A stretch of DNA of 64,000 nucleotides from the NCBI GenBank assembly GCA_048500355.1, contig JASNYD010000006.1:224211-288210 (forward strand). The letters are read 5' to 3'. Source of the stretch: Kofleriaceae bacterium. Its GTDB lineage: Bacteria > Myxococcota_A > Polyangia > Haliangiales > Haliangiaceae. The notes beneath the pieces are model-generated. The model did not search any database. It was not told where the DNA came from and saw only the letters and a program-made list of their open reading frames with translations. This document shows, piece by piece, positions 9,891 to 59,227 of this stretch. The translations under genes were made by a program, and so were the position numbers. Within the stretch, counting starts at the first letter, position 1. Each line of letters opens with the position of its first letter.

Positions 9891-10913
9891 ATGGCGCTCG
9901 AGGTCTCCGCCCGCGTCGCCGCGCTGATCATCGAGGCGGCGGTCGCCGCCGGGGCCAGCGCCCCGGCCCTGTGCGCGGCCAGCGGCTTCGACCGCGGCCG
10001 GGTGGACGACCCCGACGCCCGCGTCGCCATGGACCTGGTCGACCGGCTGTGGGAGGCCGCGGCCGACGCCACCGGCGACCCGTCGTTCGGCCTGCGCGCC
10101 GCCCTCGGCCTCCGCCCCGGCATGTTCGACGTGGTCGACTACGCGGTGCGGACGGCGCCCACCTTGCGCGTCGCGATCGAGCGCCTGGTCCGCTACGACC
10201 GGCTGGTCCGCGACGCCGGCGCACTGGGCCTGACCGTCGTGGGCGACCGCGCGCGGCTCGCCCACGCCCAGCGGCCGGCCGCCGCACCGTCCCGCCACGC
10301 CATCGAGTGCAAGCTGGCCAGCCTCCTGGTCATCGCCCGCCAGCTCACCGGCCGACCGCTGGTTGCCACCGCGGTCTCGTTCCGCCACCCGGCGCCGACC
10401 GACGTCGCCCTCCACGCCCGGGTGTTCGGCGTGGCCCCGTGCTTCGCCGCCGGCGACGACGCCCTCGAGCTGGACGCCGCCGAGCTCGACACCCCCTGCC
10501 CCGGCGCCGACCCGGCGCTGTGGCGCATCGTCGAGCGCCACGCCGAGGTCTTGCTCGCCGCCCGTCCGGCGCCGGCGCAGCTCACCGCGCGCGTCCGCCA
10601 CCACCTGACGGCCGTGCTCGCCGACGGCGGCGCCACGCTCGTCGCCACCGCCGCGCACCTGCGCCTGTCGGAGCGCAGCCTGCAGCGGCGCCTGGCCGGC
10701 GAGGGTGCGACGTTCGAGGCGCTCCTCGACGAGCTGCGCCGCGAGCTGGCCAGCCGCTACCTCGGCGATCGCGCGCTCGCCATCGGCGAGGTCGCCTACC
10801 TGCTCGGCTACTCCGAGCCCAGCGCGTTCCACCGCGCGTTCAAGCGCTGGACCGGGACCACGCCGGCCGACGCCCGGCGCCGCCAGCCGCCTACTGGATC
10901 GTCGAGTCGGTGA
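9891..10913 (+). CDS. AraC-family transcriptional regulator
   Basis: C-terminal AraC HTH signature (IGEVAYLLGYSEPSAFHRAFKRWTGTTPADAR). Confidence 0.85.
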   Translation: MALEVSARVAALIIEAAVAAGASAPALCAASGFDRGRVDDPDARVAMDLVDRLWEAAADATGDPSFGLRAALGLRPGMFDVVDYAVRTAPTLRVAIERLVRYDRLVRDAGALGLTVVGDRARLAHAQRPAAAPSRHAIECKLASLLVIARQLTGRPLVATAVSFRHPAPTDVALHARVFGVAPCFAAGDDALELDAAELDTPCPGADPALWRIVERHAEVLLAARPAPAQLTARVRHHLTAVLADGGATLVATAAHLRLSERSLQRRLAGEGATFEALLDELRRELASRYLGDRALAIGEVAYLLGYSEPSAFHRAFKRWTGTTPADARRRQPPTGSSSR

Positions 10914-11985
10914 CGACGATGGGCGTGTCGTCGTGGGCGGAGATCATCGGGTACTGCGTGTACCAGGAGCCGCCGAGGTTGCGGGTGATGACCGAGCGAT
11001 CGATCCGGATGTCGCCGGTGTGGTTGTTGGTGACGAAGAAGATCGCGCTGCCGTGCTGGACGACCTCGTTGTCGCGGATGGCGACCCCGCACAGCGAGAG
11101 CGTCATCTCGTTGCCGTCGTTGTAGATGGCGCCGCCGGAGCCGCCGCCCGGCGAGCTGCCCTGGGGCGGGTTGCCGCCGGTGCCGATGGCGCGGTTGTGC
11201 GAGAACAGGCTGTTGTAGATCGACCACGACACGCCGATGCTGCTGATGCCGCCGCCGTTGGAGCAGGTGTTGCCGAAGCCCTCGGCGCCGCCGAACGTCG
11301 TGTTGACGACGTAGACCGGCAGGTCCTGGTACTGGTCGAAGGCTCGGACGCCGGCGCCGCCGACGTCGGGACCGGTGTCGGCGCAGACGTTGCCGAAGAA
11401 GCGGGTGTTGACCAGCTTGAGGCGTCCACCGCGCGCCCAGATCGCGCCGCCGCCGTCGTACTCGGTCTCGCCCTTCGAGTTGCCGTCGATGAACGTGAGG
11501 TTCTGGACGGTGAGGCGAGGGTGATCCTGATCGTTGCAGTGCGACGTGGTCCAGCGTTGATCGGGATCGCAGGTGTTCATGTAGAGGATGCGGGTGCGAC
11601 CGCCGCCCGACAGCGTGACCTTGCCGCCGCCGTCGAGGACGATCTCGGGACCGGTGTCGTTGAAGATCTTGGCCGGCCGATCGAGCGTGATCGTCACCGG
11701 GTCGGGCCCGCAATCGAACGTGATCACGCCGCCGGCCGCCACCGCCGCGATCACCGCCTCGCCGGTGCAGCTCGCCGGCGTGCCGTCGCCGACCACGGTG
11801 CGGGGGCTGGCGACGCTGGCCGGCCCGGCCTCGCTCGGGACGCTGCAGGTGCCGTCGGGGTTGCCGGCGGGCGGCCCGTCCTCGGGATCGGTGAGCGGGT
11901 TGTCGATATCGACCCCGCCGTCGCCGCAGGCGGCGACGAGGACGGCAACCGCGATCAGGAGCGCAGGGCCGAGCGCACGCGACAT
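10891..11985 (-). CDS. lipoprotein with right-handed parallel beta-helix (pectate-lyase-like) repeats
   Basis: ATG at 11985: MSRALGPALLIAVAVLVAACGDGG (lipobox); repeated G-rich beta-helix rungs (NTRFFGN, NTTFGG, NSLFSHN, IRDNEVV, ITRNLGG); the rest of the 1573-aa ORF-track frame is antisense to the kinase gene and rejected. Confidence 0.7.
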   Translation of the reverse strand: MSRALGPALLIAVAVLVAACGDGGVDIDNPLTDPEDGPPAGNPDGTCSVPSEAGPASVASPRTVVGDGTPASCTGEAVIAAVAAGGVITFDCGPDPVTITLDRPAKIFNDTGPEIVLDGGGKVTLSGGGRTRILYMNTCDPDQRWTTSHCNDQDHPRLTVQNLTFIDGNSKGETEYDGGGAIWARGGRLKLVNTRFFGNVCADTGPDVGGAGVRAFDQYQDLPVYVVNTTFGGAEGFGNTCSNGGGISSIGVSWSIYNSLFSHNRAIGTGGNPPQGSSPGGGSGGAIYNDGNEMTLSLCGVAIRDNEVVQHGSAIFFVTNNHTGDIRIDRSVITRNLGGSWYTQYPMISAHDDTPIVVTDSTIQ

Positions 11986-47321: not shown

Positions 47322-48620
47322 GTGCCGACCCCGAAGCGCGTCGCGTTCGCAGCCCTCCTGACACACGTCGTCGCCACCGGCGGCCTCGCCGCCGCCCAGC
47401 CCGCGGGCCCCGCCGATCCCGACGAGGCCAGCCCCGCCGACCTCGCCGCTGGTGCCCCCGCCACCCCCGAGGGCGACCCGCCCGCCGACGGCGAGGAGGT
47501 CGAGGCCGAGGAGGTGGGCGAGCCGATCATCGATCGCGGCGAGCCCCGGGCCGAGGCCGGCTTCGACAAGGGCTTCTTCATCAAGAGCGCCGACGGCAAG
47601 TACAGCATGACGGTGACCGGGCGCGTCCACCCCTACTACAGCCTCGACCGCCGCACCGGGCCCGTCGACTACCGTCAGGCCTTCGAGGTGCGGCGCGCCC
47701 GCCTGGTCTTCGACGGCGACGTCCACGGCGATCACCTCGGCTACAAGCTGCAGATCGACTTCGGGCGCGGCGTGGTGACGCTCAAGGACTTCCACTTCGA
47801 CCTGGCGCTGGCCGACCAGGTCTGGCTGCGCGTCGGCCAGTGGAAGCGGCCGTTCTCGCGCCAGCACATCACCTCGAGCGGCCGCCAGGAGCTGACCGAC
47901 CGCGCGATCACCGACAAGGCCTTCGGCGCCGGCCGCGACGTCGGCCTCGCGCTGCGCAACGACTACGAGAAGTCGCCCGATCTCGAGTGGACCGTGGGCG
48001 TGTTCAACGGCACCGGCGACGCCGCCCGCCTGACCGGCACGGTCGAGGTCGACCCGGTCACCGGCGAGGGCACGATCACCGGCGGCGGACTGTCCAACGT
48101 GCCGACGACCTTCCGGCCGGCCGTCATCGGCCGCGTCGGCCTCAACGGCGGCAAGATCAAGGGCTACAGCGAGGCCGACCTCGAGGGCGGCGGCCTGCGC
48201 TGGGGCGCGGCGGCCAGCGTGTGGCTCGAGGGCGATCTCGACGAGAACGACGCGTCCAACCAGAAGGTCGAGCTCGACTACGTGGTCAAGCACTCCGGCT
48301 TCACCACCACCGGCGGCTTCTACGGCATGACCGCGCAGACCGCGGCCCAGACCTTCTCCAGCCAGGAGCTGGCCTTCGTCGGCTTCCACCTCCAGGCCGG
48401 CTACATGGTCACGCCCCGCGTCCAGCTCGCCGCCCGCTACGCGCTGGTCGACGCCCGGCTCGACGACAGCAAGGACCAGCAGGAGCTGGCGCTCGGCGGC
48501 AGCTTCTACGGCCACAAGCACGACGCCAAGCTGGCGGCGGCGCTGCGGCTGTTCAAGAACGGCGACGCCGGCTTCGGCGACGCGATCCTGCTCGAGGTGT
48601 CGAGCAACGTCGGCTGGTAG
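47322..48620 (+). CDS. outer-membrane porin, putative phosphate-selective (OprO/OprP-like), paralog 1
   Basis: Signal peptide, acidic Pro/Asp/Glu linker, beta-barrel-like alternating pattern; immediately downstream of pstSCAB. Confidence 0.65.
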   Translation: MPTPKRVAFAALLTHVVATGGLAAAQPAGPADPDEASPADLAAGAPATPEGDPPADGEEVEAEEVGEPIIDRGEPRAEAGFDKGFFIKSADGKYSMTVTGRVHPYYSLDRRTGPVDYRQAFEVRRARLVFDGDVHGDHLGYKLQIDFGRGVVTLKDFHFDLALADQVWLRVGQWKRPFSRQHITSSGRQELTDRAITDKAFGAGRDVGLALRNDYEKSPDLEWTVGVFNGTGDAARLTGTVEVDPVTGEGTITGGGLSNVPTTFRPAVIGRVGLNGGKIKGYSEADLEGGGLRWGAAASVWLEGDLDENDASNQKVELDYVVKHSGFTTTGGFYGMTAQTAAQTFSSQELAFVGFHLQAGYMVTPRVQLAARYALVDARLDDSKDQQELALGGSFYGHKHDAKLAAALRLFKNGDAGFGDAILLEVSSNVGW

Positions 48621-48684
48621 CCGGGGCCGGGCGCCCGGTGGCTCGCCGGCCCCCGACCCGACCGTATCTGTCTATGATGCCGGG

Positions 48685-50001
48685 ATGGGGCCCCCTCTGT
48701 CGCCACGCCCGCCCGCCGTCACCGCCGCGCTCGCCGTCGCCCTCGGGTTGACGCTCCTCGCCGACGCCGGCCTCGCCCGGGCCCAGCCCGCCGACGAGGA
48801 CGAGGCCTCGCCCGCCGATCTCGGCGAGCCCGACGCCGACCCCGGCGGCGACGCGGCCGGGGAGGACGAGGAGGTCGAGGCCGAGGAGATCGGCGGCCCC
48901 GAGATCGATCGCGGCGAGGGCGTGACCGAGGTCGGCTTCGCCGACGGCTTCTTCATCAAGGCCGCCGGCGGCAAGTACACGCTGCGCCTGAGCGGCGGCG
49001 TGCAGCCGGCCGCCACCCTGACCCGGACCACCGGCCCCAGGGACTGGACCGGCGCGTTCTCGGTCCGGCGCGCCCGCCTCGCCCTCGACGGCAACCTCCA
49101 CGGCAAGGCCCTGCGCTACGGCCTCCAGCTCGACGCCGGCGGCGGCGTGGTCTCGGCCCAGGATCTCTACCTCGACGTCGCGCTGGGCCAGCGGCTGTGG
49201 CTGCGCGCCGGCCAGTGGAAGCGGCCGTTCTCGCGCCAGCAGCTCACGCCCTATCAGCGCCTCGAGCTCGGCGAGCGCGCGATCACCGACGCCGTCTTCG
49301 GCGCCGGCCGCGATCTCGGCGTCGCCGTGCACAACGACCCCGGGCGCGCGTCCGGCCTGGAGTGGGCGGTGGGCGTGTTCAACGGCACCGGCGCGGCGCC
49401 GTGGCTCGGCGGCACGGTCGCGACCGATCCGGCGACCGGGGCCGGGACGATCACCGGCGGCGGCTTCACCAACGTCCCGCGCGAGCTGGCGCCGGCGGTG
49501 GTCGCGCGCGTCGGTCTCGCCGAGGGCGGCGACGGCTACAGCGAGGCCGACCTCGAGGGCGGGCCCCTGCGCTGGGGCGTCGCGGCCAGCGCCTGGCTCG
49601 AGGGCGACCTCGATCGCGACGACGCCTCGAGCCAGCGGGTCCAGCTCGACTACCACGTCAAGGTCGCCGGCTTCGCCTCCACCGGCGGCTTCTACGGCAT
49701 GACCCGCCAGACCGGCGCCCAGCCGTTCTCGACCCAGGAGCTGGCCGCGGTCGGCTTCCACCTCCAGGTCGGCTACCTGGTCGCGCCCCGGCTCCACCTC
49801 GCGGCCCGCTACGCGCTGATCGACGCTCGCCCGGCCGCCGGCGCCGCCGCCGCCGACCAGCACGAGCTCGCGCTCGGCGGCACGTACCACGGCCACGGCC
49901 ACCAGGCCAAGGTCACCGCCAGCGTCCGCCTCGTCAAGACCGGCGACGCCAGCCTGACCGACCTCGTGCTGTTCGAGCTGCTCGGCTTCGTCGGCTGGTA
50001 G
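48685..50001 (+). CDS. outer-membrane porin, putative phosphate-selective (OprO/OprP-like), paralog 2
   Basis: ~50% identical to the preceding gene over full length (shared GFFIK, WLRAGQWKRPFSRQ, WAVGVFNGTG, GFHLQ.GY, ARYAL.DAR, LELLGFVGW). Confidence 0.65.
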   Translation: MGPPLSPRPPAVTAALAVALGLTLLADAGLARAQPADEDEASPADLGEPDADPGGDAAGEDEEVEAEEIGGPEIDRGEGVTEVGFADGFFIKAAGGKYTLRLSGGVQPAATLTRTTGPRDWTGAFSVRRARLALDGNLHGKALRYGLQLDAGGGVVSAQDLYLDVALGQRLWLRAGQWKRPFSRQQLTPYQRLELGERAITDAVFGAGRDLGVAVHNDPGRASGLEWAVGVFNGTGAAPWLGGTVATDPATGAGTITGGGFTNVPRELAPAVVARVGLAEGGDGYSEADLEGGPLRWGVAASAWLEGDLDRDDASSQRVQLDYHVKVAGFASTGGFYGMTRQTGAQPFSTQELAAVGFHLQVGYLVAPRLHLAARYALIDARPAAGAAAADQHELALGGTYHGHGHQAKVTASVRLVKTGDASLTDLVLFELLGFVGW

Positions 50002-51631: not shown

Positions 51632-51737
51632 GCCGGTGGCTGCGTGGCCTGGGTGGAGCTGTCGCCAGGGTGACCTGCCCGATCCTGCCGGTACGGTCGA
51701 TGGCGGCGCGCGCATCCGATGCGCTAGGGTCAACGTC

Positions 51738-52190
51738 ATGTCGATGAACGGGGAGCTCCGCCTGATTCCGCCCGAGCTCATGGATCAGTTGGACGACGAG
51801 GATGTGGTCGACGGCCTGATGGATGGTGACGGGCTCTCCGTCGGCAAGGCGTGGAACGGCTTGCACTACCTCTATTGCGGCGACGGGACGGCGGGCGAGA
51901 GCGCGATCAGCGGTGGCATTCCCCTCGACCATGGCGACACCGGCTACGGGCCGCCGCAGTACCTGACGCCGGACGAGGTCGCGGCCTACGCGCGCGAGCT
52001 CGAAACGCTGACCGATGAGAGGCTCCGCGACGCATACGATGCGAAGGAGATGGAGCAGGAGAGCGTCTATCCGGGTGGCTGGGACGACCCGTCCAATCTG
52101 GAGTGGCTCCTCACAGAAGCGCGCAAGGTGCGCGAGTTCTATCGCGAGGCGTCGGCGAAGGGCGCGGGGGTATTGCAGTTCCTCGCGTAG
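51738..52190 (+). CDS. DUF1877 (YfbM-like) family protein
   Basis: 150 aa; resembles YfbM family (MSMNGELRLIPPELMDQL...LHYLY); noticeably lower GC than flanking genes. Confidence 0.65.
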   Translation: MSMNGELRLIPPELMDQLDDEDVVDGLMDGDGLSVGKAWNGLHYLYCGDGTAGESAISGGIPLDHGDTGYGPPQYLTPDEVAAYARELETLTDERLRDAYDAKEMEQESVYPGGWDDPSNLEWLLTEARKVREFYREASAKGAGVLQFLA

Positions 52191-52475: not shown

Positions 52476-53348
52476 CTACCCTTGCGCGTCCACGGCCTGC
52501 ACCGGAGCGCCGACGAGAATCGGTGCCATCAGGTCTTCCAGGCGCCGCCGCCGCTCTCCTGCGACGGGCGTCAGCGCCGTCTCGATCGACTCCGTCAGCT
52601 GGATGTACGTCAGCTCGCCCACCCGATCGACCCGGGCCGGCTCGACCTCCGCCTTGACGCGCGCCAGCCCGCCGATGGCCTCGAGGTGGCCGTCGTGGAG
52701 GTAGGTCCCCCAGCGCGGATGCCGGGCGTACCTGCGACCGATGAACTTGAACCACTCCGCGGCCAGGCTGGTCTGCTTCCGGAACCCTGCGGGCAGCCCG
52801 AGGTCGACGTCGCCCTGGGGCGTGTCGAGGATCAGGTTCATGAGCCACGTGTCGCAGATGGCCAGGTCGTACGTTGGCCACGCCCCGAGGATCGCGTGCA
52901 GCACACCCAGCTCCGTCACCAGCTCGTGCATCAGCTCGATCCAGGCAGCGAACGACTTGCCCGGCGGCAGCTCCGCCGATCGACACGTGACTCGCAGCTG
53001 GAAGGGCTCGTTCCATTCCTCTCGCGAGCGATCGAGGTTGAGCATGACCCTGGTGAAGTTCCCGTCCCCCCTCGCACGGTTCATGTAGAGGCGGCTCAGC
53101 TTGTCGGACCGCAGCCCCTCCAGGATCGGCGCCGAGCCATTCTTCCCTCCCACGCGGACCGACCTCCGGTCGTCTCGCTTGTGCAGCCCCGAGTACGACG
53201 CCCACCACGGGATCCATGGCCACCGCTTGTCGACCAGGAGGTCGGCGACGCGCTGCGCTCGGTCCGGGTCGACCCACACGGCCTTCTCGAAGAACGCCAC
53301 GAGACCGGCATGAGGAAACTGGCTGTTGATGCTCGGTTGCCGTGCCAC
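52476..53348 (-). CDS. Trp-rich 290-aa protein, tandem paralog 1 of 4 (putative immunity protein of the upstream secreted toxin-like protein)
   Basis: GTG start preceded by GGAGTAGGA; MARQPSINSQFPHAGLVAFFEKAVWVDPDRAQRVADLLVDKRWPWIPWWASYSG...; natural amino-acid composition, whereas all other frames are Arg/Pro/Gly junk; no signal peptide. Confidence 0.7.
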   Translation of the reverse strand: MARQPSINSQFPHAGLVAFFEKAVWVDPDRAQRVADLLVDKRWPWIPWWASYSGLHKRDDRRSVRVGGKNGSAPILEGLRSDKLSRLYMNRARGDGNFTRVMLNLDRSREEWNEPFQLRVTCRSAELPPGKSFAAWIELMHELVTELGVLHAILGAWPTYDLAICDTWLMNLILDTPQGDVDLGLPAGFRKQTSLAAEWFKFIGRRYARHPRWGTYLHDGHLEAIGGLARVKAEVEPARVDRVGELTYIQLTESIETALTPVAGERRRRLEDLMAPILVGAPVQAVDAQG

Positions 53349-53694
53349 GCGACATCCTACTCCGAGAGGTCGACCACGAGCGCTGTGTGAACCCCACCTG
53401 GCTGGTGACGCCGCGCTCGCCACGACCTCGCCATCACTGATCGCGACCAGCCGTTCGGGCTTGGATGTCGACGGAGGGGATGGCAGCTCGGATCGCGTCG
53501 CTCCAGGCCGAGATGGCGACCAGGGAGCGCGACGCCGTCGCGCGAACCTGGATCGCCCCGGTCGGCCTGGGGTGTCTGGTCCCCTCGATGCCCTTCGTGT
53601 CACCCTGGTCGACGAAGCCGCGGGGATCACGCGGCCCAGGCCCGCCGACAAGCCGCCGGCGACACCCCGGCGGGCGGGCGGATCGCGACACGGG

Positions 53695-54567
53695 CTACCC
53701 TTGCGCGTCCACGGCCTGCACCGGGGCGCCGACGAGAATCGGTGCCATCAGGTCTTCCAGGCGTCGCCGCCGCTCTCCTGCGACGGGCGTCAGCGCCGTC
53801 TCGATCGACTCCGTCAGCTGGATGTACGTCAGCTCGCCCACCCGATCGACCCGGGCCGGCTCGACCTCCGCCTTGACGCGCGCCAGCCCGCCGATGGCCT
53901 CGAGGTGGCCGTCGTGGAGGTAGGTCCCCCAGCGCGGATGCCGGGCGTACCTGCGACCGATGAACTTGAACCACTCCGCGGCCAGGCTGGTCTGCTTCCG
54001 GAACCCTGCGGGCAGCCCGAGGTCGACGTCGCCCTGGGGCGTGTCGAGGATCAGGTTCATGAGCCACGTGTCGCAGATGGCCAGGTCGTACGTTGGCCAC
54101 GCCCCGAGGATCGCGTGCAGCACACCCAGCTCCGTCACCAGCTCGTGCATCAGCTCGATCCAGGCAGCGAACGACTTGCCCGGCGGCAGCTCCGCCGATC
54201 GACACGTGACTCGCAGCTGGAAGGGCTCGTTCCATTCCTCTCGCGAGCGATCGAGGTTGAGCATGACCCTGGTGAAGTTCCCGTCCCCCCTCGCACGGTT
54301 CATGTAGAGGCGGCTCAGCTTGTCGGACCGCAGCCCCTCCAGGATCGGCGCCGAGCCATTCTTCCCTCCCACGCGGACCGACCTCCGGTCGTCTCGCTTG
54401 TGCAGCCCCGAGTACGACGCCCACCACGGGATCCATGGCCACCGCTTGTCGACCAGGAGGTCGGCGACGCGCTGCGCTCGGTCCGGGTCGACCCACACGG
54501 CCTTCTCGAAGAACGCCACGAGACCGGCATGAGGAAACTGGCTGTTGATGCTCGGTTGCCGTGCCAC
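53695..54567 (-). CDS. Trp-rich 290-aa protein, tandem paralog 2 of 4 (putative immunity protein)
   Basis: Identical or near-identical to paralog 1; same GTG/RBS context. Confidence 0.7.
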   Translation of the reverse strand: MARQPSINSQFPHAGLVAFFEKAVWVDPDRAQRVADLLVDKRWPWIPWWASYSGLHKRDDRRSVRVGGKNGSAPILEGLRSDKLSRLYMNRARGDGNFTRVMLNLDRSREEWNEPFQLRVTCRSAELPPGKSFAAWIELMHELVTELGVLHAILGAWPTYDLAICDTWLMNLILDTPQGDVDLGLPAGFRKQTSLAAEWFKFIGRRYARHPRWGTYLHDGHLEAIGGLARVKAEVEPARVDRVGELTYIQLTESIETALTPVAGERRRRLEDLMAPILVGAPVQAVDAQG

Positions 54568-54922
54568 GCGACATCCTACTCCGAGAGGTCGACCACGAGC
54601 GCTGTGTGAACCCCACCTGGCTGGTGACGCCGCGCTCGCCACGACCTCGCCATCACTGATCGCGACCAGCCGTTCGGGCTTGGATGTCGACGGAGGGGAT
54701 GGCAGCTCGGATCGCGTCGCTCCAGGCCGAGATGGCGACCAGGGCGGCCAACGGAGCGCGACGCCGTCGCGCGAACCTGGATCGCCCCGGTCGGCCTGGG
54801 GTGTCTGGTCCCCTCGATGCCCTTCGTGTCACCCTGGTCGACGAAGCCGCGGGGATCACGCGGCCAGGCCCGCCGACAAGCCGCCGGCGACACCCCGGCG
54901 GGCGGGCGGATCGCGACACGGG

Positions 54923-55795
54923 CTACCCTTGCGCGTCCACGGCCTGCACCGGAGCGCCGACGAGAATCGGTGCCATCAGGTCTTCCAGGCGCCGCCGCCG
55001 CTCTCCTGCGACGGGCGTCAGCGCCGTCTCGATCGACTCCGTCAGCTGGATGTACGTCAGCTCGCCCACCCGATCGACCCGGGCCGGCTCGACCTCCGCC
55101 TTGACGCGCGCCAGCCCGCCGATGGCCTCGAGGTGGCCGTCGTGGAGGTAGGTCCCCCAGCGCGGATGCCGGGCGTACCTGCGACCGATGAACTTGAACC
55201 ACTCCGCGGCCAGGCTGGTCTGCTTCCGGAACCCTGCGGGCAGCCCGAGGTCGACGTCGCCCTGGGGCGTGTCGAGGATCAGGTTCATGAGCCACGTGTC
55301 GCAGATGGCCAGGTCGTACGTTGGCCACGCCCCGAGGATCGCGTGCAGCACACCCAGCTCCGTCACCAGCTCGTGCATCAGCTCGATCCAGGCAGCGAAC
55401 GACTTGCCCGGCGGCAGCTCCGCCGATCGACACGTGACTCGCAGCTCGTACGGTTCGCTCCATTGCTCCTTCGTAGGATCGAGGTCGAGTGCGACCCTGG
55501 TGAAGTTCCCGTCCCCCCTCGCACGGTTCATGTAGAGGGTACCCATCTTGTCGGACCGCAGCCCCTCCAGGATCGGCGCCGAGCCATTCTTCCCTCCCAC
55601 GCGGACCGACCTCCGGTCGTCTCGCTTGTGCAGCCCCGAGTACGACGCCCACCACGGGATCCATGGCCACCGCTTGTCGACCAGGAGGTCGGCGACGCGC
55701 TGCGCTCGGTCCGGGTCGACCCACACGGCCTTCTCGAAGAACGCCACGAGACCGGCATGAGGAAACTGGCTGTTGATGCTCGGTTGCCGTGCCAC
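54923..55795 (-). CDS. Trp-rich 290-aa protein, tandem paralog 3 of 4 (mosaic variant; putative immunity protein)
   Basis: Same frame and length; central segment KMGTLYMNRARGDGNFTRVALDLDPTKEQWSEPYELRV differs from KLSRLYMNRARGDGNFTRVMLNLDRSREEWNEPFQLRV in the other copies. Confidence 0.7.
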   Translation of the reverse strand: MARQPSINSQFPHAGLVAFFEKAVWVDPDRAQRVADLLVDKRWPWIPWWASYSGLHKRDDRRSVRVGGKNGSAPILEGLRSDKMGTLYMNRARGDGNFTRVALDLDPTKEQWSEPYELRVTCRSAELPPGKSFAAWIELMHELVTELGVLHAILGAWPTYDLAICDTWLMNLILDTPQGDVDLGLPAGFRKQTSLAAEWFKFIGRRYARHPRWGTYLHDGHLEAIGGLARVKAEVEPARVDRVGELTYIQLTESIETALTPVAGERRRRLEDLMAPILVGAPVQAVDAQG

Positions 55796-56141
55796 GCGAC
55801 ATCCTACTCCGAGAGGTCGACCACGAGCGCTGTGTGAACCCCACCTGGCTGGTGACGCCGCGCTCGCCACGACCTCGCCATCACTGATCGCGACCAGCCG
55901 TTCGGGCTTGGATGTCGACGGAGGGGATGGCAGCTCGGATCGCGTCGCTCCAGGCCGAGATGGCGACCAGGGAGCGCGACGCCGTCGCGCGAACCTGGAT
56001 CGCCCCGGTCGGCCTGGGGTGTCTGGTCCCCTCGATGCCCTTCGTGTCACCCTGGTCGACGAAGCCGCGGGGATCACGCGGCCCAGGCCCGCCGACAAGC
56101 CGCCGGCGACACCCCGGCGGGCGGGCGGATCGCGACACGGG

Positions 56142-57014
56142 CTACCCTTGCGCGTCCACGGCCTGCACCGGGGCGCCGACGAGAATCGGTGCCATCAGGT
56201 CTTCCAGGCGTCGCCGCCGCTCTCCTGCGACGGGCGTCAGCGCCGTCTCGATCGACTCCGTCAGCTGGATGTACGTCAGCTCGCCCACCCGATCGACCCG
56301 GGCCGGCTCGACCTCCGCCTTGACGCGCGCCAGCCCGCCGATGGCCTCGAGGTGGCCGTCGTGGAGGTAGGTCCCCCAGCGCGGATGCCGGGCGTACCTG
56401 CGACCGATGAACTTGAACCACTTGGCCGCGAGGCTGGTCTGCTTCTGGAACCCTGCGGGCAGCCCGAGGTCGACGTCGCCCTGGGGCGTGTCGAGGATCA
56501 GGTTCATGAGCCACGTGTCGCAGATGGCCAGGTCGTACGTTGGCCACGCCCCGAGGATCGCGTGCAGCACACCCAGCTCCGTCACCAGCTCGTGCATCAG
56601 CTCGATCCAGGCAGCGAACGACTTGCCCGGCGGCAGCTCCGCCGATCGACACGTGACTCGCAGCTGGAAGGGCTCGTTCCATTCCTCTCGCGAGCGATCG
56701 AGGTTGAGCATGACGCTGGTGAAGTCGCCGTCCCCCCTCGCACGGTTCATGTCGAGGCGGCTCAGCTTGTCGGACCGCAGCCCCTCCAGGATCGGCGCCG
56801 AGCCATTCTTCCCTCCCACGCGGACCGACCTCCGGTCGTCTCGCTTGTGCAGCCCCGAGTACGACGCCCACCACGGGATCCATGGCCACCGCTTGTCGAC
56901 CAGGAGGTCGGCGACGCGCTGCGCCCGGTCCGGGTCGACCCACACGGCCTTCTCGAAGAACGCCACGAGACCGGCATGAGGAAACTGGCTGTTGATGCTC
57001 GGCTGCCGTGCCAC
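56142..57014 (-). CDS. Trp-rich 290-aa protein, tandem paralog 4 of 4 (putative immunity protein), translationally coupled to upstream gene
   Basis: GTG 8 nt after the TAG stop of the 734-aa gene, which fixes the start codon choice for all copies; a few substitutions (LSRLDM, GDFTSV, FQKQ, AAKWF). Confidence 0.7.
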   Translation of the reverse strand: MARQPSINSQFPHAGLVAFFEKAVWVDPDRAQRVADLLVDKRWPWIPWWASYSGLHKRDDRRSVRVGGKNGSAPILEGLRSDKLSRLDMNRARGDGDFTSVMLNLDRSREEWNEPFQLRVTCRSAELPPGKSFAAWIELMHELVTELGVLHAILGAWPTYDLAICDTWLMNLILDTPQGDVDLGLPAGFQKQTSLAAKWFKFIGRRYARHPRWGTYLHDGHLEAIGGLARVKAEVEPARVDRVGELTYIQLTESIETALTPVAGERRRRLEDLMAPILVGAPVQAVDAQG

Positions 57015-57022
57015 GCGAGATC

Positions 57023-59227
57023 CTACTCCGAGAGGTCGACCACGAAGTCCTTGAACAGCTTCCCCGCCGGCGGACAGTACTCGTAGACGCGCAGCTCCGG
57101 CTTGAGTTCGGCGGTCTGGCTGGCCTCGTCGAAGCAAGGGCGCAACACCTCGAGGTTGCCGGTCAGCTCGTCGCGCCTCTTCTTCCCGCGAAGTGCGTTC
57201 ACGATCTCCCGGATGCCGTCTTCGATCTGCACCTTCCCCAGCTTCCTGGCATCCTCGTTGTTCGGCTTGATCTCGACGACGTAGCAGACGTTCCCGTCCA
57301 CGCGGATGCAGTCGACACGGCGATTGCCATAGGTGAGCTCGCTCCTGGTGCACTTGCTCGAGTCGCCCTGGATGCGCCTGTGCTCCTGCTTGCCGACCTC
57401 GATCTGGGCTCGGACCTCCGGATCGTTGGCGCCGTTGAGCTCGTCGTTCAAGAGGCTCGCGAGGCTGCTGAGCCGACGCTTGACGCTGTCGCGCGCCTTG
57501 GTCGCAGCCTCGCGGATGTCATCGTCCTCGGCCTTCATGAGGCGCTCGGCGTGGCCGATGAGGGCCAGGCCGCTCGTGTTGATGTTCCCCCACTGGGGTC
57601 GGACGCGGTCGCGCATCCGGTCCGCGATCTCTCGTAGCTGCGCGGCGTGGGCGTCACCCTCCGCGTAGTCCCCGGGCGACTCGGGGATCGAGCAGAAGAG
57701 CTGCCGGACGTTCCGCGTGTCCTCGACGTACCAGCGACGGAGCTCCTTGATGCCATCGTCCCACCTCCGCAGCTCCGAGCGGAGCTGCGCCAGGTCGGCG
57801 GTGGCGCCCTTGAGCGCGGCCTGCAGCTGCTCGATCGCGGCCTTGGCGATCGGTCCGTCCTCGCCCATCGCGATCTTCTCGCAGTCCCGCTGCGCGATCT
57901 CGCGCGCCTTCTTCCAGTACTCGAAGGTGCTCTCGGCGGCGGTGCGGTACTTCCCGGTGAGGCTCGACCACTGTCCTTCGGAAGGTGCGAACCGCTGGGT
58001 CTCCGAGCGCGCACGCTCCATCGTCGCATGCTGCTCGTTGGTCTTCGCCAGGCCCGCGATGATCGGCTGAGCAAGAGACTTCGCTTGCAGCTTGATGTGC
58101 TCGATGCCCTTGGTGTCGTTCTTCTCGACGTAGCGGCGAACCAGGTCGGAGAGTCGCTGCGATGCCTCCTGACAGCGCTTGGGGGCGTTGTCGGCGAGGA
58201 ACTGGGCCTCCTTGAGCACGCGGAGCGGCTTCAGGGCCTCCCGCGCGGCGCGGACGTTGTTGCGCCACACCTCGAGCCGGCGCTTGGCCTCCCCGTCGTT
58301 GCCCTTGACGCGGTCGAGCTGTTCGAGGAGGCGGTCGATCTCGTTCAGCTTGCCGTCCGCCCGGGCGATGTCGGAGGCGTCGCTGTCGCCCGCGAGACCA
58401 TCGAGGCTCGACGCCATCTCGCCGAGCTGGCGGTCGAGCTGCTCGTAGACCATCTCGATGCCCCTCTTGCCCTCGTAGAGCTTCCTCATCGCATCCTCGA
58501 CCAGCGGGTTGCGCTCCTCCCGGGCGAGGTTGCCGCAGACGTCGTCGCGCTTCACCTGCTCCGACTGCTTGACGGTGTGCTCGTACATCGTGCGGGCAGA
58601 GGTGACGAGGTTGTTGCGGACGTCGCTCCACCTACCATCGCTGTACGAGAAGTCGTCGGCGCGATCGTACCAGGTGTACATCTCGTTCTTGGTCCGCTCG
58701 GCCTGCTCCATCGCCTCCTTGCCCACTCGGCCAAACTCGCGCGCGAGCTTGGGCACCTCGTCGACGCCGCGCGGGTCCGGACTGTCGGTGTAGGTCTTCA
58801 TCCGCGAGGTCAGCTCGCGCACCGCCTGCTCGCACTTCCTGGGCCACTCATCGACCTTGCGGTGGCCGTTCTTGAGCTCGCGCAGGTAGCCAGCGGCGTC
58901 CTTGTAGCGGCTGGCGATGTCCGGGTAGGACTCGCCCATGCGGCGGGCGTCGGAGTCGTCGTCGGCCTGGTTCTTGAGGTCGCGTGCCTTCTCGGAGACA
59001 CGCCCGGCGTAGTCGATGGTGCGGTCGAGGTCCGACGTGCTCGAGTCACCGGGCACGTCGCGCAGCTCGCTGGCGATATCGGAGAGCAGACGCTCGATCT
59101 CCTCGCGGAGCTGGCGGCGCTTCGACTCATCGGCCCGGACCGGGCCTCCGGACGCCAGCGCCACTACGCCGAGAGCCAAGGCGGCGAGCTGGATGCGGTG
59201 CACACCGCGCTGCTGTCTCTTCGTCAT
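57023..59227 (-). CDS. Sec-secreted 734-aa coiled-coil protein with C-terminal PD-(D/E)xK-like nuclease motif (putative polymorphic toxin / bacteriocin-like effector)
   Basis: ATG 59227 with GGAGG 7 nt upstream; signal peptide MTKRQQRGVHRIQLAALALGVVALASGGPVRA; ~600 aa of charged heptad-like helical sequence; C-terminal ~100 aa with RVDCIRVDGNVCYVVEIKPNN (D...EIK); lower GC than the genome. Confidence 0.75.
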   Translation of the reverse strand: MTKRQQRGVHRIQLAALALGVVALASGGPVRADESKRRQLREEIERLLSDIASELRDVPGDSSTSDLDRTIDYAGRVSEKARDLKNQADDDSDARRMGESYPDIASRYKDAAGYLRELKNGHRKVDEWPRKCEQAVRELTSRMKTYTDSPDPRGVDEVPKLAREFGRVGKEAMEQAERTKNEMYTWYDRADDFSYSDGRWSDVRNNLVTSARTMYEHTVKQSEQVKRDDVCGNLAREERNPLVEDAMRKLYEGKRGIEMVYEQLDRQLGEMASSLDGLAGDSDASDIARADGKLNEIDRLLEQLDRVKGNDGEAKRRLEVWRNNVRAAREALKPLRVLKEAQFLADNAPKRCQEASQRLSDLVRRYVEKNDTKGIEHIKLQAKSLAQPIIAGLAKTNEQHATMERARSETQRFAPSEGQWSSLTGKYRTAAESTFEYWKKAREIAQRDCEKIAMGEDGPIAKAAIEQLQAALKGATADLAQLRSELRRWDDGIKELRRWYVEDTRNVRQLFCSIPESPGDYAEGDAHAAQLREIADRMRDRVRPQWGNINTSGLALIGHAERLMKAEDDDIREAATKARDSVKRRLSSLASLLNDELNGANDPEVRAQIEVGKQEHRRIQGDSSKCTRSELTYGNRRVDCIRVDGNVCYVVEIKPNNEDARKLGKVQIEDGIREIVNALRGKKRRDELTGNLEVLRPCFDEASQTAELKPELRVYEYCPPAGKLFKDFVVDLSE

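What the first reader, a model, noticed from the sequence alone, without database searches (positions are those of the whole stretch)
57026..57420. C-terminal ~110 aa of the secreted protein carry a PD-(D/E)xK-like motif (RVDCIRVDGNVCYVVEIKPNN)
The spacing D-x(9)-E-I-K after a hydrophobic beta-strand is the canonical restriction-endonuclease-fold catalytic core. The long coiled-coil N-terminal region would then be a delivery or receptor-binding scaffold, as in colicin/pyocin-type and other polymorphic toxins. The domain is small and not obviously any named Tox-REase family, so it may be a novel variant.
Basis: inference. Interest (0 to 1): 0.6.

Follow-up and report, generated by a model that had tools for sequence, protein, structure and literature searches.

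The report
Secreted nuclease toxin with immunity genes
The end of this secreted myxobacterial protein is a DNA/RNA-cutting toxin domain, a divergent relative of a named toxin family; it sits on a previously undescribed rod-like carrier and is followed by four copies of a previously undescribed protective gene, so it is an ordinary kind of bacterial weapon in an unusual package.

Summary
The motif is real. RVDCIRVDGNVCYVVEIKPNN is aa 637-657 of a 734-aa protein (57023-59227, minus strand).

The conserved catalytic set is H616, E630, D639, E652 and K654. This gives D-x12-E-x-K, not D-x9. D644 is not conserved.

The domain is not family-less. It is a divergent branch of Tox-REase-9 (PF15650). It scores below Pfam's cut-off and has Gly in place of the family's Tyr, but close relatives pass the cut-off.

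The protein shows the sequence hallmarks of a polymorphic toxin:
- a Sec signal peptide;
- two homologous ~210-aa helical modules plus a linker;
- C-terminal modules swapped between otherwise ~95-100% identical N-termini;
- a cytoplasmic 290-aa partner gene immediately downstream in the 10 related loci where the nuclease domain is recognisable.

In this window that partner gene is present four times in tandem.

The carrier modules and the immunity family have no Pfam or NCBIfam match. Nothing resembles colicins. How the toxin is delivered is unknown.

Verdict: a known kind of system in a new variant, of moderate interest.

The parts
57023..59227 (-). Toxin gene, 734 aa plus stop. Identical to MBE7454361.1 / HS111_37570, 'hypothetical protein', Kofleriaceae bacterium MAG.
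   Evidence: ORF list; translation; identical protein in public data; 49 relatives, most of them full-length (715-765 aa).
59132..59227 (-). Sec-type signal peptide, aa 1-32. Predicted cleavage after VRA. There is no lipobox Cys.
   Evidence: Read directly from the sequence. Equivalent signal peptides followed by an acidic A|DDESDR-like start in 25 of 26 relatives inspected. pLDDT below 50 for aa 1-8 and 24-31.
58493..59131 (-). Helical module R1, aa 33-245, with conserved Cys pair C132/C231.
   Evidence: hhalign R1 vs R2: probability 99.8%, E 3.6e-30, 202 columns. Long helices in the AF2 model. Invariant Cys.
57848..58492 (-). Helical module R2, aa 246-460, a duplicate of R1, with Cys pair C352/C449.
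   Evidence: Relatives carry 0, 1 or 2 such modules.
57443..57847 (-). Helical linker or 'pre-toxin' region R3, aa 461-595, with C512. It varies together with the toxin variant.
   Evidence: Not related to R1/R2 by hhalign. Detected in most members of all three length classes of the family. Identity between toxin variants collapses from about aa 340-460 onward.
57026..57442 (-). PD-(D/E)xK nuclease toxin domain, aa 596-734, a divergent Tox-REase-9. Key residues: G612/H616 (helix 1), E630 (strand 1), D639 (strand 2), E652 and K654-P655 (strand 3), Q667. Conserved Cys: 626, 640, 648, 698, 718.
57257..57319 (-). It forms strands 2 and 3 of the core.
56142..57014 (-). Immunity-like gene, copy 1 (290 aa, GTG start 8 nt after the toxin stop codon, no signal peptide). 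The toxin's last codons supply a Shine-Dalgarno-like GGAGTAGGA.
   Evidence: A homologue lies directly downstream of the toxin domain in L001-L007 and L010-L011; L009 and the first L008 locus keep only a C-terminal immunity match. 64 homologues, none with a precomputed Pfam domain. Pfam and NCBIfam give no hit for the window protein.
54923..55795 (-). Immunity-like gene, copy 2 (94% aa identity to copy 1). It carries a divergent mosaic patch in codons 84-117.
53695..54567 (-). Immunity-like gene, copy 3 (98% aa identity to copy 1).
52476..53348 (-). Immunity-like gene, copy 4 (protein identical to copy 3).
   Evidence: Repeat units of 1219/1228/1219 nt.

Best explanation
The gene at 57023-59227 (-) most likely encodes a Sec-exported, probably disulfide-bonded polymorphic toxin of a family so far seen only in uncultured Myxococcota (Kofleriaceae/Haliangiales) and unnamed metagenomic contigs.

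Its layout is: signal peptide, two homologous ~210-aa helical modules, a helical linker, and a ~140-aa PD-(D/E)xK nuclease domain.

The nuclease domain is a divergent branch of Tox-REase-9. Its conserved set is H616 on the first helix, E630, D639, and E652-x-K654. By my own recollection this has the same layout as the His-containing two-metal sites of Cas4/RecB-like nucleases and bunyavirus cap-snatching endonucleases. From that I infer a Mn2+/Mg2+-dependent phosphodiesterase that kills by cutting nucleic acid, most likely DNA, in cells that lack the matching immunity protein.

The 290-aa cytoplasmic protein encoded 8 nt downstream, present here in four tandem copies, is inferred to bind and block the nuclease.

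What is shown (computationally): the fold, the conserved residues, homology to Tox-REase-9, the modular architecture, C-terminal module swapping, and toxin/immunity gene linkage.

What is inferred: nuclease activity and substrate, export and disulfide bonding, neutralisation by the downstream protein, and an antibacterial role.

What is unknown: how the protein crosses the producer's outer membrane and how it enters a target cell.

For: Sequence. Sub-threshold Pfam hits go to Tox-REase-9, Herpes_UL24 and Cas4. 25 of 29 aligned relatives hit PF15650. Profile-found relatives pass the cut-off: 32.4, 37.5 and 34.8 against 27.3 bits. The Zhang et al. 2012 motifs GxxxH, E, D and E[LIF]KP are present. 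These residues are near-invariant in 173 relatives.

Polymorphic-toxin behaviour. P0041 and P0052 are 100% identical over aa ~80-320 (at least 92% over ~40-340) and 8-40% (mostly ~20%) identical after aa 460. P0040 and P0026 show the same pattern: mostly 90-100% identical over aa ~40-320, then 8-38% after aa 460. An orphan C-terminal fragment with its own immunity gene occurs in L001.

Immunity linkage. An immunity homologue lies directly downstream of the toxin domain in the 10 related loci where that domain is recognisable; two variant loci keep only its C-terminal ~75 aa. The window protein has no signal peptide.

Export. Signal peptides occur in 25 of 26 relatives inspected, and the mature window protein has 10 invariant Cys.

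Independence from neighbours. Flanking genes differ between loci, so the pair behaves as a self-contained cassette.
Against: No activity, toxicity or secretion data exist; every piece of evidence is computational.

The window sequence itself is below Pfam's Tox-REase-9 cut-off. It has Gly671 where most relatives have the Tyr of the QxxxY / YxxE motif (120 Y against 37 G of 173). Activity or specificity may therefore differ.

No secretion-system, lysis or receptor genes were seen among the larger ORFs scanned by Pfam in the window.

The N-terminal region has no informative structural match, so the 'delivery scaffold' role is only inferred.

The substrate (DNA or RNA) cannot be decided from the fold: by my own knowledge PD-(D/E)xK toxins include tRNases, and the Foldseek hits include RNA endonucleases.

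Confidence: 0.8

Rival explanations
1. It is a secreted 'housekeeping' or predatory nuclease paired with an intracellular inhibitor, in the manner of barnase/barstar or NucA/NuiA. The enzyme would degrade extracellular or prey nucleic acid for nutrients, possibly phosphate. The inhibitor would only protect the producer before export. There would be no delivery into rival cells.
For: The protein has a Sec signal peptide and no recognisable translocation or receptor domain. In this window the cassette lies next to a PhoR-like kinase, pstSCAB and two phosphate-selective porins. Myxobacteria are predators (established knowledge; reviewed in PMC10433427, listed).
Against: The phosphate-uptake neighbourhood is not conserved in the other loci examined. 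The C-terminal module is swapped between otherwise near-identical N-termini, and the downstream partner's similarity to the window protein falls as the toxin variant diverges. Orphan toxin-fragment plus immunity cassettes exist, and immunity genes form an array here. These are signatures of inter-strain conflict, not of a digestive enzyme.
Confidence: 0.12
2. The domain has the REase fold but acts on RNA (a tRNase or rRNase), or it is a structure-specific rather than a general DNase.
For: The Foldseek hits after the first (3fov) are mostly bunyavirus cap-snatching RNA endonucleases, which by my own recollection share the H...D...ExK layout. By my own knowledge, some PD-(D/E)xK CdiA-CT toxins are tRNases. 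TseV3, another PD-(D/E)xK effector, cuts only splayed-arm DNA (PMC9635880). Loss of the QxxxY Tyr in this subfamily could alter substrate handling.
Confidence: 0.25
3. The domain is a degenerate, catalytically inactive remnant, and the protein's real role is structural: a helical periplasmic or surface protein.
For: The score is sub-threshold against the Pfam model. The Tyr of the family signature is replaced by Gly.
Against: All five core residues (H616, E630, D639, E652, K654) are intact and near-invariant across 173 relatives. 37 relatives share the Gly, so it is a subfamily trait and not decay. An immunity-like gene is kept next to the toxin domain in the 10 related loci where that domain is recognisable, and it is amplified here.
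Confidence: 0.05

Closest known systems
Tox-REase-9 (Pfam PF15650; Zhang, de Souza, Anantharaman, Iyer & Aravind 2012, PMC3482391)
   Same: It has the restriction-endonuclease fold. The signature motifs GxxxH, E, D and E-[LIF]-K-P are all present. Relatives of the window domain pass the Pfam cut-off. A Sec signal peptide with no other leader falls in the paper's 'T2SS/Sec-dependent' export class.
   Different: The window sequence scores 18.2-18.6 bits against a cut-off of 27.3. The Tyr of the final motif is Gly671 in this subfamily. The described partners are absent: no Imm54 hit in 26 immunity homologues, and no RHS, HINT or LXG. Myxococcota is not among the lineages listed in 2012. Five extra conserved Cys are present.
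Cas4 / RecB-family and Exo5/MGME1-type PD-(D/E)xK nucleases; bunyavirus cap-snatching endonucleases
   Same: They are among the best structural matches, and Cas4 gives a weak Pfam hit. By my own recollection they share the layout of a helix-borne His or acidic residue plus D...(D/E)xK. Most relatives have a QxxxY-like motif after strand 3.
   Different: Sequence identity is 10-18%. By my own knowledge the arrangement of Cys differs from the Cas4 Fe-S cluster. The domain here is a small stand-alone module at the end of an exported protein and is paired with an immunity gene.
TseV/TsiV: T6SS VRR-Nuc PD-(D/E)xK effectors with DUF3396 immunity proteins (Hespanhol et al. 2022, PMC9635880)
   Same: Both pair a PD-(D/E)xK nuclease effector with a ~270-380-aa cytoplasmic immunity protein, and the immunity gene is often duplicated in tandem. 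Twelve of 26 immunity homologues here give weak hits to PF11876 (TsiV); in the five shown individually the hit falls on the same conserved RHPRWGTYL..H..AIGG stretch.
   Different: All TsiV hits are below the cut-off (best E 0.0016; 11-14 bits vs 25 in the members listed) and cover only ~34 residues. The window copy itself gives none. A profile search of PDB sequences found no significant match: one hit, a lipase, at E 0.57. The toxin is Sec-exported, with no PAAR/VgrG and no T6SS genes nearby, and its nuclease belongs to a different PD-(D/E)xK branch.
MafB-type polymorphic toxins: signal peptide plus a lineage-specific constant N-terminal domain plus a variable C-terminal toxin (Zhang et al. 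2012)
   Same: The logic is the same: a signal peptide, a lineage-restricted conserved N-terminal region, a polymorphic C-terminus, and an immunity gene downstream.
   Different: The N-terminal domain is unrelated. Here it is a duplicated ~210-aa all-helical module present in 0, 1 or 2 copies. No MafA-like partner gene was seen.
SitA lipoprotein toxins of Myxococcus (outer-membrane exchange; PMC5562445, PMC8546572)
   Same: Both are myxobacterial polymorphic toxins with an N-terminal export signal, an N-terminal 'escort' region, a C-terminal toxin that is often a nuclease, and a downstream immunity gene.
   Different: SitA proteins are lipoproteins. Here there is no lipobox Cys after the signal peptide. 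No sequence similarity was detected, and the family occurs in Kofleriaceae/Haliangiales MAGs.
Nuclease colicins / S-type pyocins
   Same: Both have a C-terminal nuclease neutralised by a downstream immunity protein, with an elongated helical region upstream.

Membership tests
PD-(D/E)xK (restriction-endonuclease-fold) superfamily | alpha-beta-beta-beta-alpha-beta core topology | tested here: met
   The AF2 model (pLDDT 86.8) gives H16-34, E41-46, E49-57, E60-68, H71-92, H103-111, E121-128. The same elements appear in the full-length model.
PD-(D/E)xK (restriction-endonuclease-fold) superfamily | Conserved Asp on strand 2 and (D/E)xK on strand 3 | tested here: met
   D639 falls in strand 49-57 and E652/K654 in strand 60-68 (model numbering +587). 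They are conserved in 169, 171 and 171 of 173 relatives.
PD-(D/E)xK (restriction-endonuclease-fold) superfamily | Structural similarity to solved members | tested here: met
PD-(D/E)xK (restriction-endonuclease-fold) superfamily | Metal-dependent phosphodiesterase activity | not testable with these tools
   This needs a biochemical assay.
Tox-REase-9 (PF15650) | Score at or above Pfam's gathering cut-off (27.3 bits) | tested here: not met
   The window domain scores 18.6 and 18.2 bits. Relatives P0073, P0081 and P0119 score 32.4, 37.5 and 34.8 bits. 25 of 29 aligned members hit the family at E<=0.01, best 4.9e-9. Homology is therefore transitive; the window sequence itself does not pass.
Tox-REase-9 (PF15650) | Signature motifs GxxxH, E, D, ELKP (Zhang et al. 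2012) | tested here: met
   G612-KQE-H616, E630, D639 and E652-I-K654-P655 are present and near-invariant in the family.
Tox-REase-9 (PF15650) | Signature motif YxxE | tested here: not met
   If, as I infer, this motif lies in the helix after strand 3, the window has G671-I-R-E674. At that position 120 of 173 relatives have Tyr and 37 have Gly. The placement of the motif is my own inference from the alignment.
Tox-REase-9 (PF15650) | Associated immunity family Imm54 | tested here: not met
   No Imm54 hit in 26 immunity homologues at E<=1. The window immunity protein has no Pfam or NCBIfam hit.
Polymorphic toxin system (sensu Zhang/Aravind 2012) | N-terminal export/trafficking region with a C-terminal toxin domain | tested here: met
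   Signal peptide, helical modules, then the nuclease domain.
Polymorphic toxin system (sensu Zhang/Aravind 2012) | Conserved N-terminus with variable, recombining C-terminus | tested here: met
   P0041 and P0052 are 100% identical over aa ~80-320, then 8-40% identical after aa 460. P0040 and P0026 behave likewise. At least five C-terminal variants were seen.
Polymorphic toxin system (sensu Zhang/Aravind 2012) | Immunity gene immediately downstream; orphan toxin/immunity cassettes | tested here: met
   An immunity homologue lies directly downstream of the toxin domain in the 10 related loci where that domain is recognisable (L001-L007, L009-L011). L009 and the first L008 locus keep only the C-terminal ~75 aa of the match. 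L001 holds an orphan 194-aa C-terminal fragment plus an immunity gene.
Polymorphic toxin system (sensu Zhang/Aravind 2012) | Toxicity neutralised specifically by the cognate immunity protein | not testable with these tools
   This needs co-expression and competition assays.
Nuclease colicin / S-pyocin | No signal peptide, lysis-protein release, T-R-C domain organisation | tested here: not met
SitA outer-membrane-exchange toxins | Lipoprotein signal peptide with lipobox Cys | tested here: not met
   The predicted cleavage region is ...ASGGPVRA|DESK with no Cys. Apart from P0118, which has a Cys just before its predicted cleavage site, the relatives inspected also lack one.
TsiV (PF11876 / DUF3396) immunity family | Score at or above Pfam's cut-off (25 bits) over the domain | tested here: inconclusive
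   12 of 26 homologues give weak hits, best E 0.0016. In the five shown individually the scores are 11-14 bits, always at profile positions ~164-197. The window copy gives none. The profile search of PDB sequences found no significant match.

The most novel reading that the evidence does not exclude
The toxin belongs to an undescribed, self-contained delivery family. Members are Sec-exported, probably disulfide-stapled rods built from 0, 1 or 2 copies of a ~210-aa spectrin-like helical module, and almost all members recovered here carry a Tox-REase-9-like nuclease. They pair with a new two-part immunity family: a variable N-terminal part, and a conserved C-terminal part that may be distantly related to TsiV. 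If the helical modules mediate a new route of surface display or target-cell entry in Myxococcota, this would be a new trafficking class of polymorphic toxin. The four-copy immunity array with a localised mosaic patch would then be a snapshot of immunity specificity diversifying.
Probability: 0.3. Interest if true: 0.6.

Novelty: new variant of a known kind. Interest (0 to 1): 0.4.

Why it matters
The toxin domain itself adds little: PD-(D/E)xK nuclease toxins are common, and this one is traceable to Tox-REase-9.

Three other things are worth recording.

(1) An un-annotated modular helical carrier. It is found in all three length classes of the family, as 0, 1 or 2 modules. How it delivers the toxin is unknown.

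(2) An un-annotated immunity family of about 290 aa. Its conserved C-terminal motif gives only a faint TsiV-like signal.

(3) A four-copy immunity array in which one copy differs almost only by non-synonymous changes within codons 84-117. That patch is a ready-made candidate for the toxin-binding specificity surface.

All the proteins involved are 'hypothetical' in public records, so the analysis supplies a function for a family of several hundred metagenomic proteins.

Tried and rejected
- Sequence search of the PDB with the toxin domain found only a chance hit to an enkurin-domain protein, E 0.2. The same search with the immunity profile found only a lipase, E 0.57.
- The first genome-collection scan, using the single protein, found nothing. 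The alignment-based scan worked.
- I looked for toxin-gene remnants in the ~350-nt spacers between immunity copies. Only the last 31 nt of the toxin gene, which include the ribosome-binding site, are repeated. The rest of each spacer remains unexplained.
- I tested whether the third helical region (aa 461-600) is another copy of the repeat. It is not.
- I looked for colicin-like or other informative structural matches to the N-terminal region. Only generic spectrin, plakin and designed helical bundles came up.
- The AFDB Foldseek library was unavailable.
- The contig look-up for the identical immunity protein failed. Cluster membership then identified the source MAG.
- Taxon names for the shorter (270-aa and 500-aa) relatives could not be obtained.
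- The promoter/terminator scan was uninformative.
- I considered a Tat signal, a lipoprotein signal and a T7SS WXG/LXG leader. I rejected them from the N-terminal sequence and because the WXG100 hit was only marginal, E 0.066.
Full report
OBSERVATION

The window is 74% G+C. The ORF 57023..59227 on the minus strand encodes a 734-aa protein. The flagged peptide RVDCIRVDGNVCYVVEIKPNN is aa 637-657, which is window 57257-57319 and lies inside the stated interval.

The bare pattern D-x(7-12)-E-x-K is not statistically remarkable. It occurs 3 times in this protein, against 2.2 +/- 1.7 in shuffles. The motif therefore had to be validated by conservation and by fold.

The conserved Asp is D639, giving D-x12-E652-x-K654. 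D644 is D in only 53 of 173 relatives.

THE C-TERMINAL DOMAIN

Pfam gives only sub-threshold hits, and all three are PD-(D/E)xK families: Tox-REase-9 (18.6 bits against a cut-off of 27.3), Herpes_UL24 and Cas4.

Homology searches recovered:
- 11 close relatives of the domain;
- 49 relatives of the N-terminal region, most of them full-length;
- 175 cluster representatives at E<=1e-3 in a profile search of 1.84 billion proteins.

Several of those representatives pass the Tox-REase-9 cut-off: 32.4, 37.5 and 34.8 bits. Of 29 aligned family members, 25 hit PF15650, best E 4.9e-9.

Zhang et al. 2012 define Tox-REase-9 by the motifs GxxxH, E, D, ELKP and YxxE. The window has G612xxxH616, E630, D639 and E652-I-K654-P655. 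In place of the Tyr it has G671-x-x-E674. That position is Tyr in 120 of 173 relatives and Gly in 37.

An AlphaFold2 model of aa 588-734, built on a 29-sequence alignment, has pLDDT 86.8 and pTM 0.79. Its order of elements is a-b-b-b-a-a-b-b, with D639 on strand 2 and E652/K654 on strand 3.

Conclusion: the REase-fold reading is correct. The domain is a divergent branch of a named family and not a family-less novelty.

THE REST OF THE PROTEIN

The N-terminus, MTKRQQRGVHRIQLAALALGVVALASGGPVRA|DESK, looks like a Sec signal peptide with no lipobox. Of 26 relatives inspected across all length classes, 25 have an equivalent signal, mostly followed by an acidic 'ADDESDR'-like start. The other, P0142, appears 5'-truncated.

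The mature window protein has 10 Cys (132, 231, 352, 449, 512, 626, 640, 648, 698, 718). All are invariant across the 41 aligned full-length relatives. Most relatives inspected also have an even number, assuming signal-peptide cleavage. This fits disulfide bonding outside the cytoplasm, but that is an inference.

Residues 33-245 and 246-460 are homologous to each other: hhalign probability 99.8%, E 3.6e-30. Residues 461-600 are a distinct helical linker.

HMMs of the three regions show that the toxin-domain family comes in three length classes:
- ~270-300 aa: linker plus nuclease;
- ~480-520 aa: one module, linker, nuclease;
- ~715-735 aa: two modules, linker, nuclease.

Neither the helical modules nor the linker has a Pfam or NCBIfam match.

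POLYMORPHIC-TOXIN BEHAVIOUR

Full-length relatives carry at least five C-terminal variants. All keep the D-C...C-x-x-x-E-[FI]-K-P core.

P0041 and P0052 are 100% identical over aa ~80-320 (at least 92% over ~40-340). They are about 35-70% identical over aa 340-450, and 8-40% (mostly about 20%) identical beyond aa 460. P0040 and P0026 behave the same way. This is the recombinational replacement of C-terminal modules that defines polymorphic toxins.

In the 10 related loci where the nuclease domain is recognisable, the toxin gene is immediately followed by a homologue of the 290-aa protein encoded 8 nt downstream of the window toxin. This set includes a locus with the toxin ORF split in two (L002) and an orphan 194-aa C-terminal fragment (L001). 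With the more divergent toxin variants (L009 and the first L008 locus), only the C-terminal ~75 aa of the immunity protein remain recognisable. This suggests a variable N-terminal part joined to a conserved C-terminal part.

The immunity family has 64 homologues. It has no signal peptide, no Pfam or NCBIfam match and no solved relative. Twelve of 26 members give faint, positionally consistent hits to PF11876 (TsiV), best E 0.0016. TsiV is the DUF3396 immunity protein of the VRR-Nuc PD-(D/E)xK T6SS effectors (PMC9635880). I treat this as a lead only.

LOCAL CONTEXT

The source is a Kofleriaceae MAG. The toxin is HS111_37570 (MBE7454361.1) and the immunity gene is HS111_37565. Both are annotated as 'hypothetical protein'. 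Related loci come from Kofleriaceae, Haliangiales and 'delta proteobacterium' MAGs.

The flanking genes are:
- a PhoR-like kinase, pstSCAB, two phosphate porins, an fn3 protein and a DUF1877 protein on one side;
- a VWA/YfbK protein, a LamG/DUF2341 protein and a transporter on the other.

No T5SS, T6SS or T7SS genes, lysis genes or mobile-element genes were seen among the larger ORFs scanned. The flanks differ in other loci, so the toxin-immunity pair is a self-contained cassette.

Among the loci examined, only this window has the immunity gene in four tandem copies. The repeat units are 1219, 1228 and 1219 nt, and amino-acid identity to copy 1 is 100, 94, 98 and 98%. Each unit keeps the last 31 nt of the toxin gene, which contain the Shine-Dalgarno-like GGAGTAGGA.

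Copy 2 differs from copy 4 by 12 non-synonymous and 2 synonymous codon changes, all within codons 84-117.

MECHANISM AND RIVALS

Best explanation (confidence 0.8): this is a Sec-exported polymorphic nuclease toxin whose cognate cytoplasmic immunity protein blocks the nuclease.

The chemistry is inferred from the fold and the residues: a two-metal PD-(D/E)xK phosphodiesterase, probably acting on DNA. The delivery route is unknown.

Rivals:
- A scavenging or predatory secreted nuclease with a self-protecting inhibitor (0.12). The module swapping, the orphan cassettes and the immunity array argue against it.
- An RNA or structure-specific substrate (0.25). This is compatible with the main model.
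- An inactive remnant (0.05). The near-invariant catalytic set argues against it.

COMPARISON AND NOVELTY

The protein works like a Tox-REase-type polymorphic toxin. It is homologous to Tox-REase-9 but fails two membership criteria, the Pfam cut-off and the Tyr of the last motif. It also lacks that family's described partners (Imm54, RHS, HINT, LXG).

It is not colicin-like, because it has a signal peptide and a different nuclease type. It is not SitA-like, because it has no lipobox. Its logic is closest to the MafB-type toxins: a signal peptide, a lineage-specific constant region and a variable C-terminus.

The carrier modules and the immunity family appear undescribed: they have no Pfam or NCBIfam match, and the one paper found that mentions Tox-REase-9 lists different partners for it.

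I rate the system a new variant of a known kind, with interest 0.4.

Noticed in passing
window 52476-57014 (-): There are four tandem copies of the 290-aa immunity-like gene, in units of 1219/1228/1219 nt. The other loci examined each have one copy next to the toxin. Copies 3 and 4 encode identical proteins, and copy 1 differs from them at 5 residues. Copy 2 differs from copy 4 by 12 non-synonymous and 2 synonymous codon changes, all in codons 84-117. This is a mosaic patch that could be the toxin-recognition surface.
   Followed up: partly
window 55796-56141, 54568-54922, 53349-53694 (-): The ~350-nt spacers between immunity copies are near-identical and very G+C-rich. They share only their last 31 nt with the toxin's 3' end. 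Alternate copies differ by a 1-nt and a 9-nt indel, giving an A-B-A-B pattern that suggests duplication of a two-unit block. What the spacers encode, if anything, is unexplained.
   Followed up: partly
window 56142-57014 (-) and homologues P0209-P0271: The immunity family has an invariant C-terminal motif (R209-H-P-R-W-G-T-Y-L...H221..A-I-G-G227). This motif remains recognisable next to divergent toxin variants. It gives faint hits to Pfam TsiV (PF11876) in 12 of 26 members.
   Followed up: partly
P0061-P0207 (relatives): The toxin family exists in three length classes (~280, ~500 and ~725 aa), made of 0, 1 or 2 copies of the same ~210-aa helical module. Most members inspected have an even number of Cys in the mature protein.
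   Followed up: yes
window 51636-52190 (+): A DUF1877 (YfbM-like) gene converges on the end of the immunity array (E 1e-28). Whether it has any link to the cassette is unknown.
   Followed up: no
window 47322-50001 (+): Two adjacent paralogous phosphate-selective porin O/P genes lie here, with DNA repeat families at 71-83% identity and 1372-1381 nt spacing. They sit downstream of genes with PstS-, permease- and ABC-ATPase-type domains (pstSCAB-like) and a histidine kinase I take to be PhoR-like.
   Followed up: partly
L008 (Kofleriaceae MAG_26 contig) 79-2969 and 10001-11896; also P0026 (HS111_17840): Single genomes carry several paralogous toxins of this family with different C-terminal variants. 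The source MAG of the window has at least one more (P0026), and L008 has two on one contig.
   Followed up: partly
L002 6229-8420: In one related locus the toxin is split into a 587-aa ORF and a 139-aa ORF, just upstream of the nuclease domain. This is either a frameshifted pseudogene or an assembly error.
   Followed up: no
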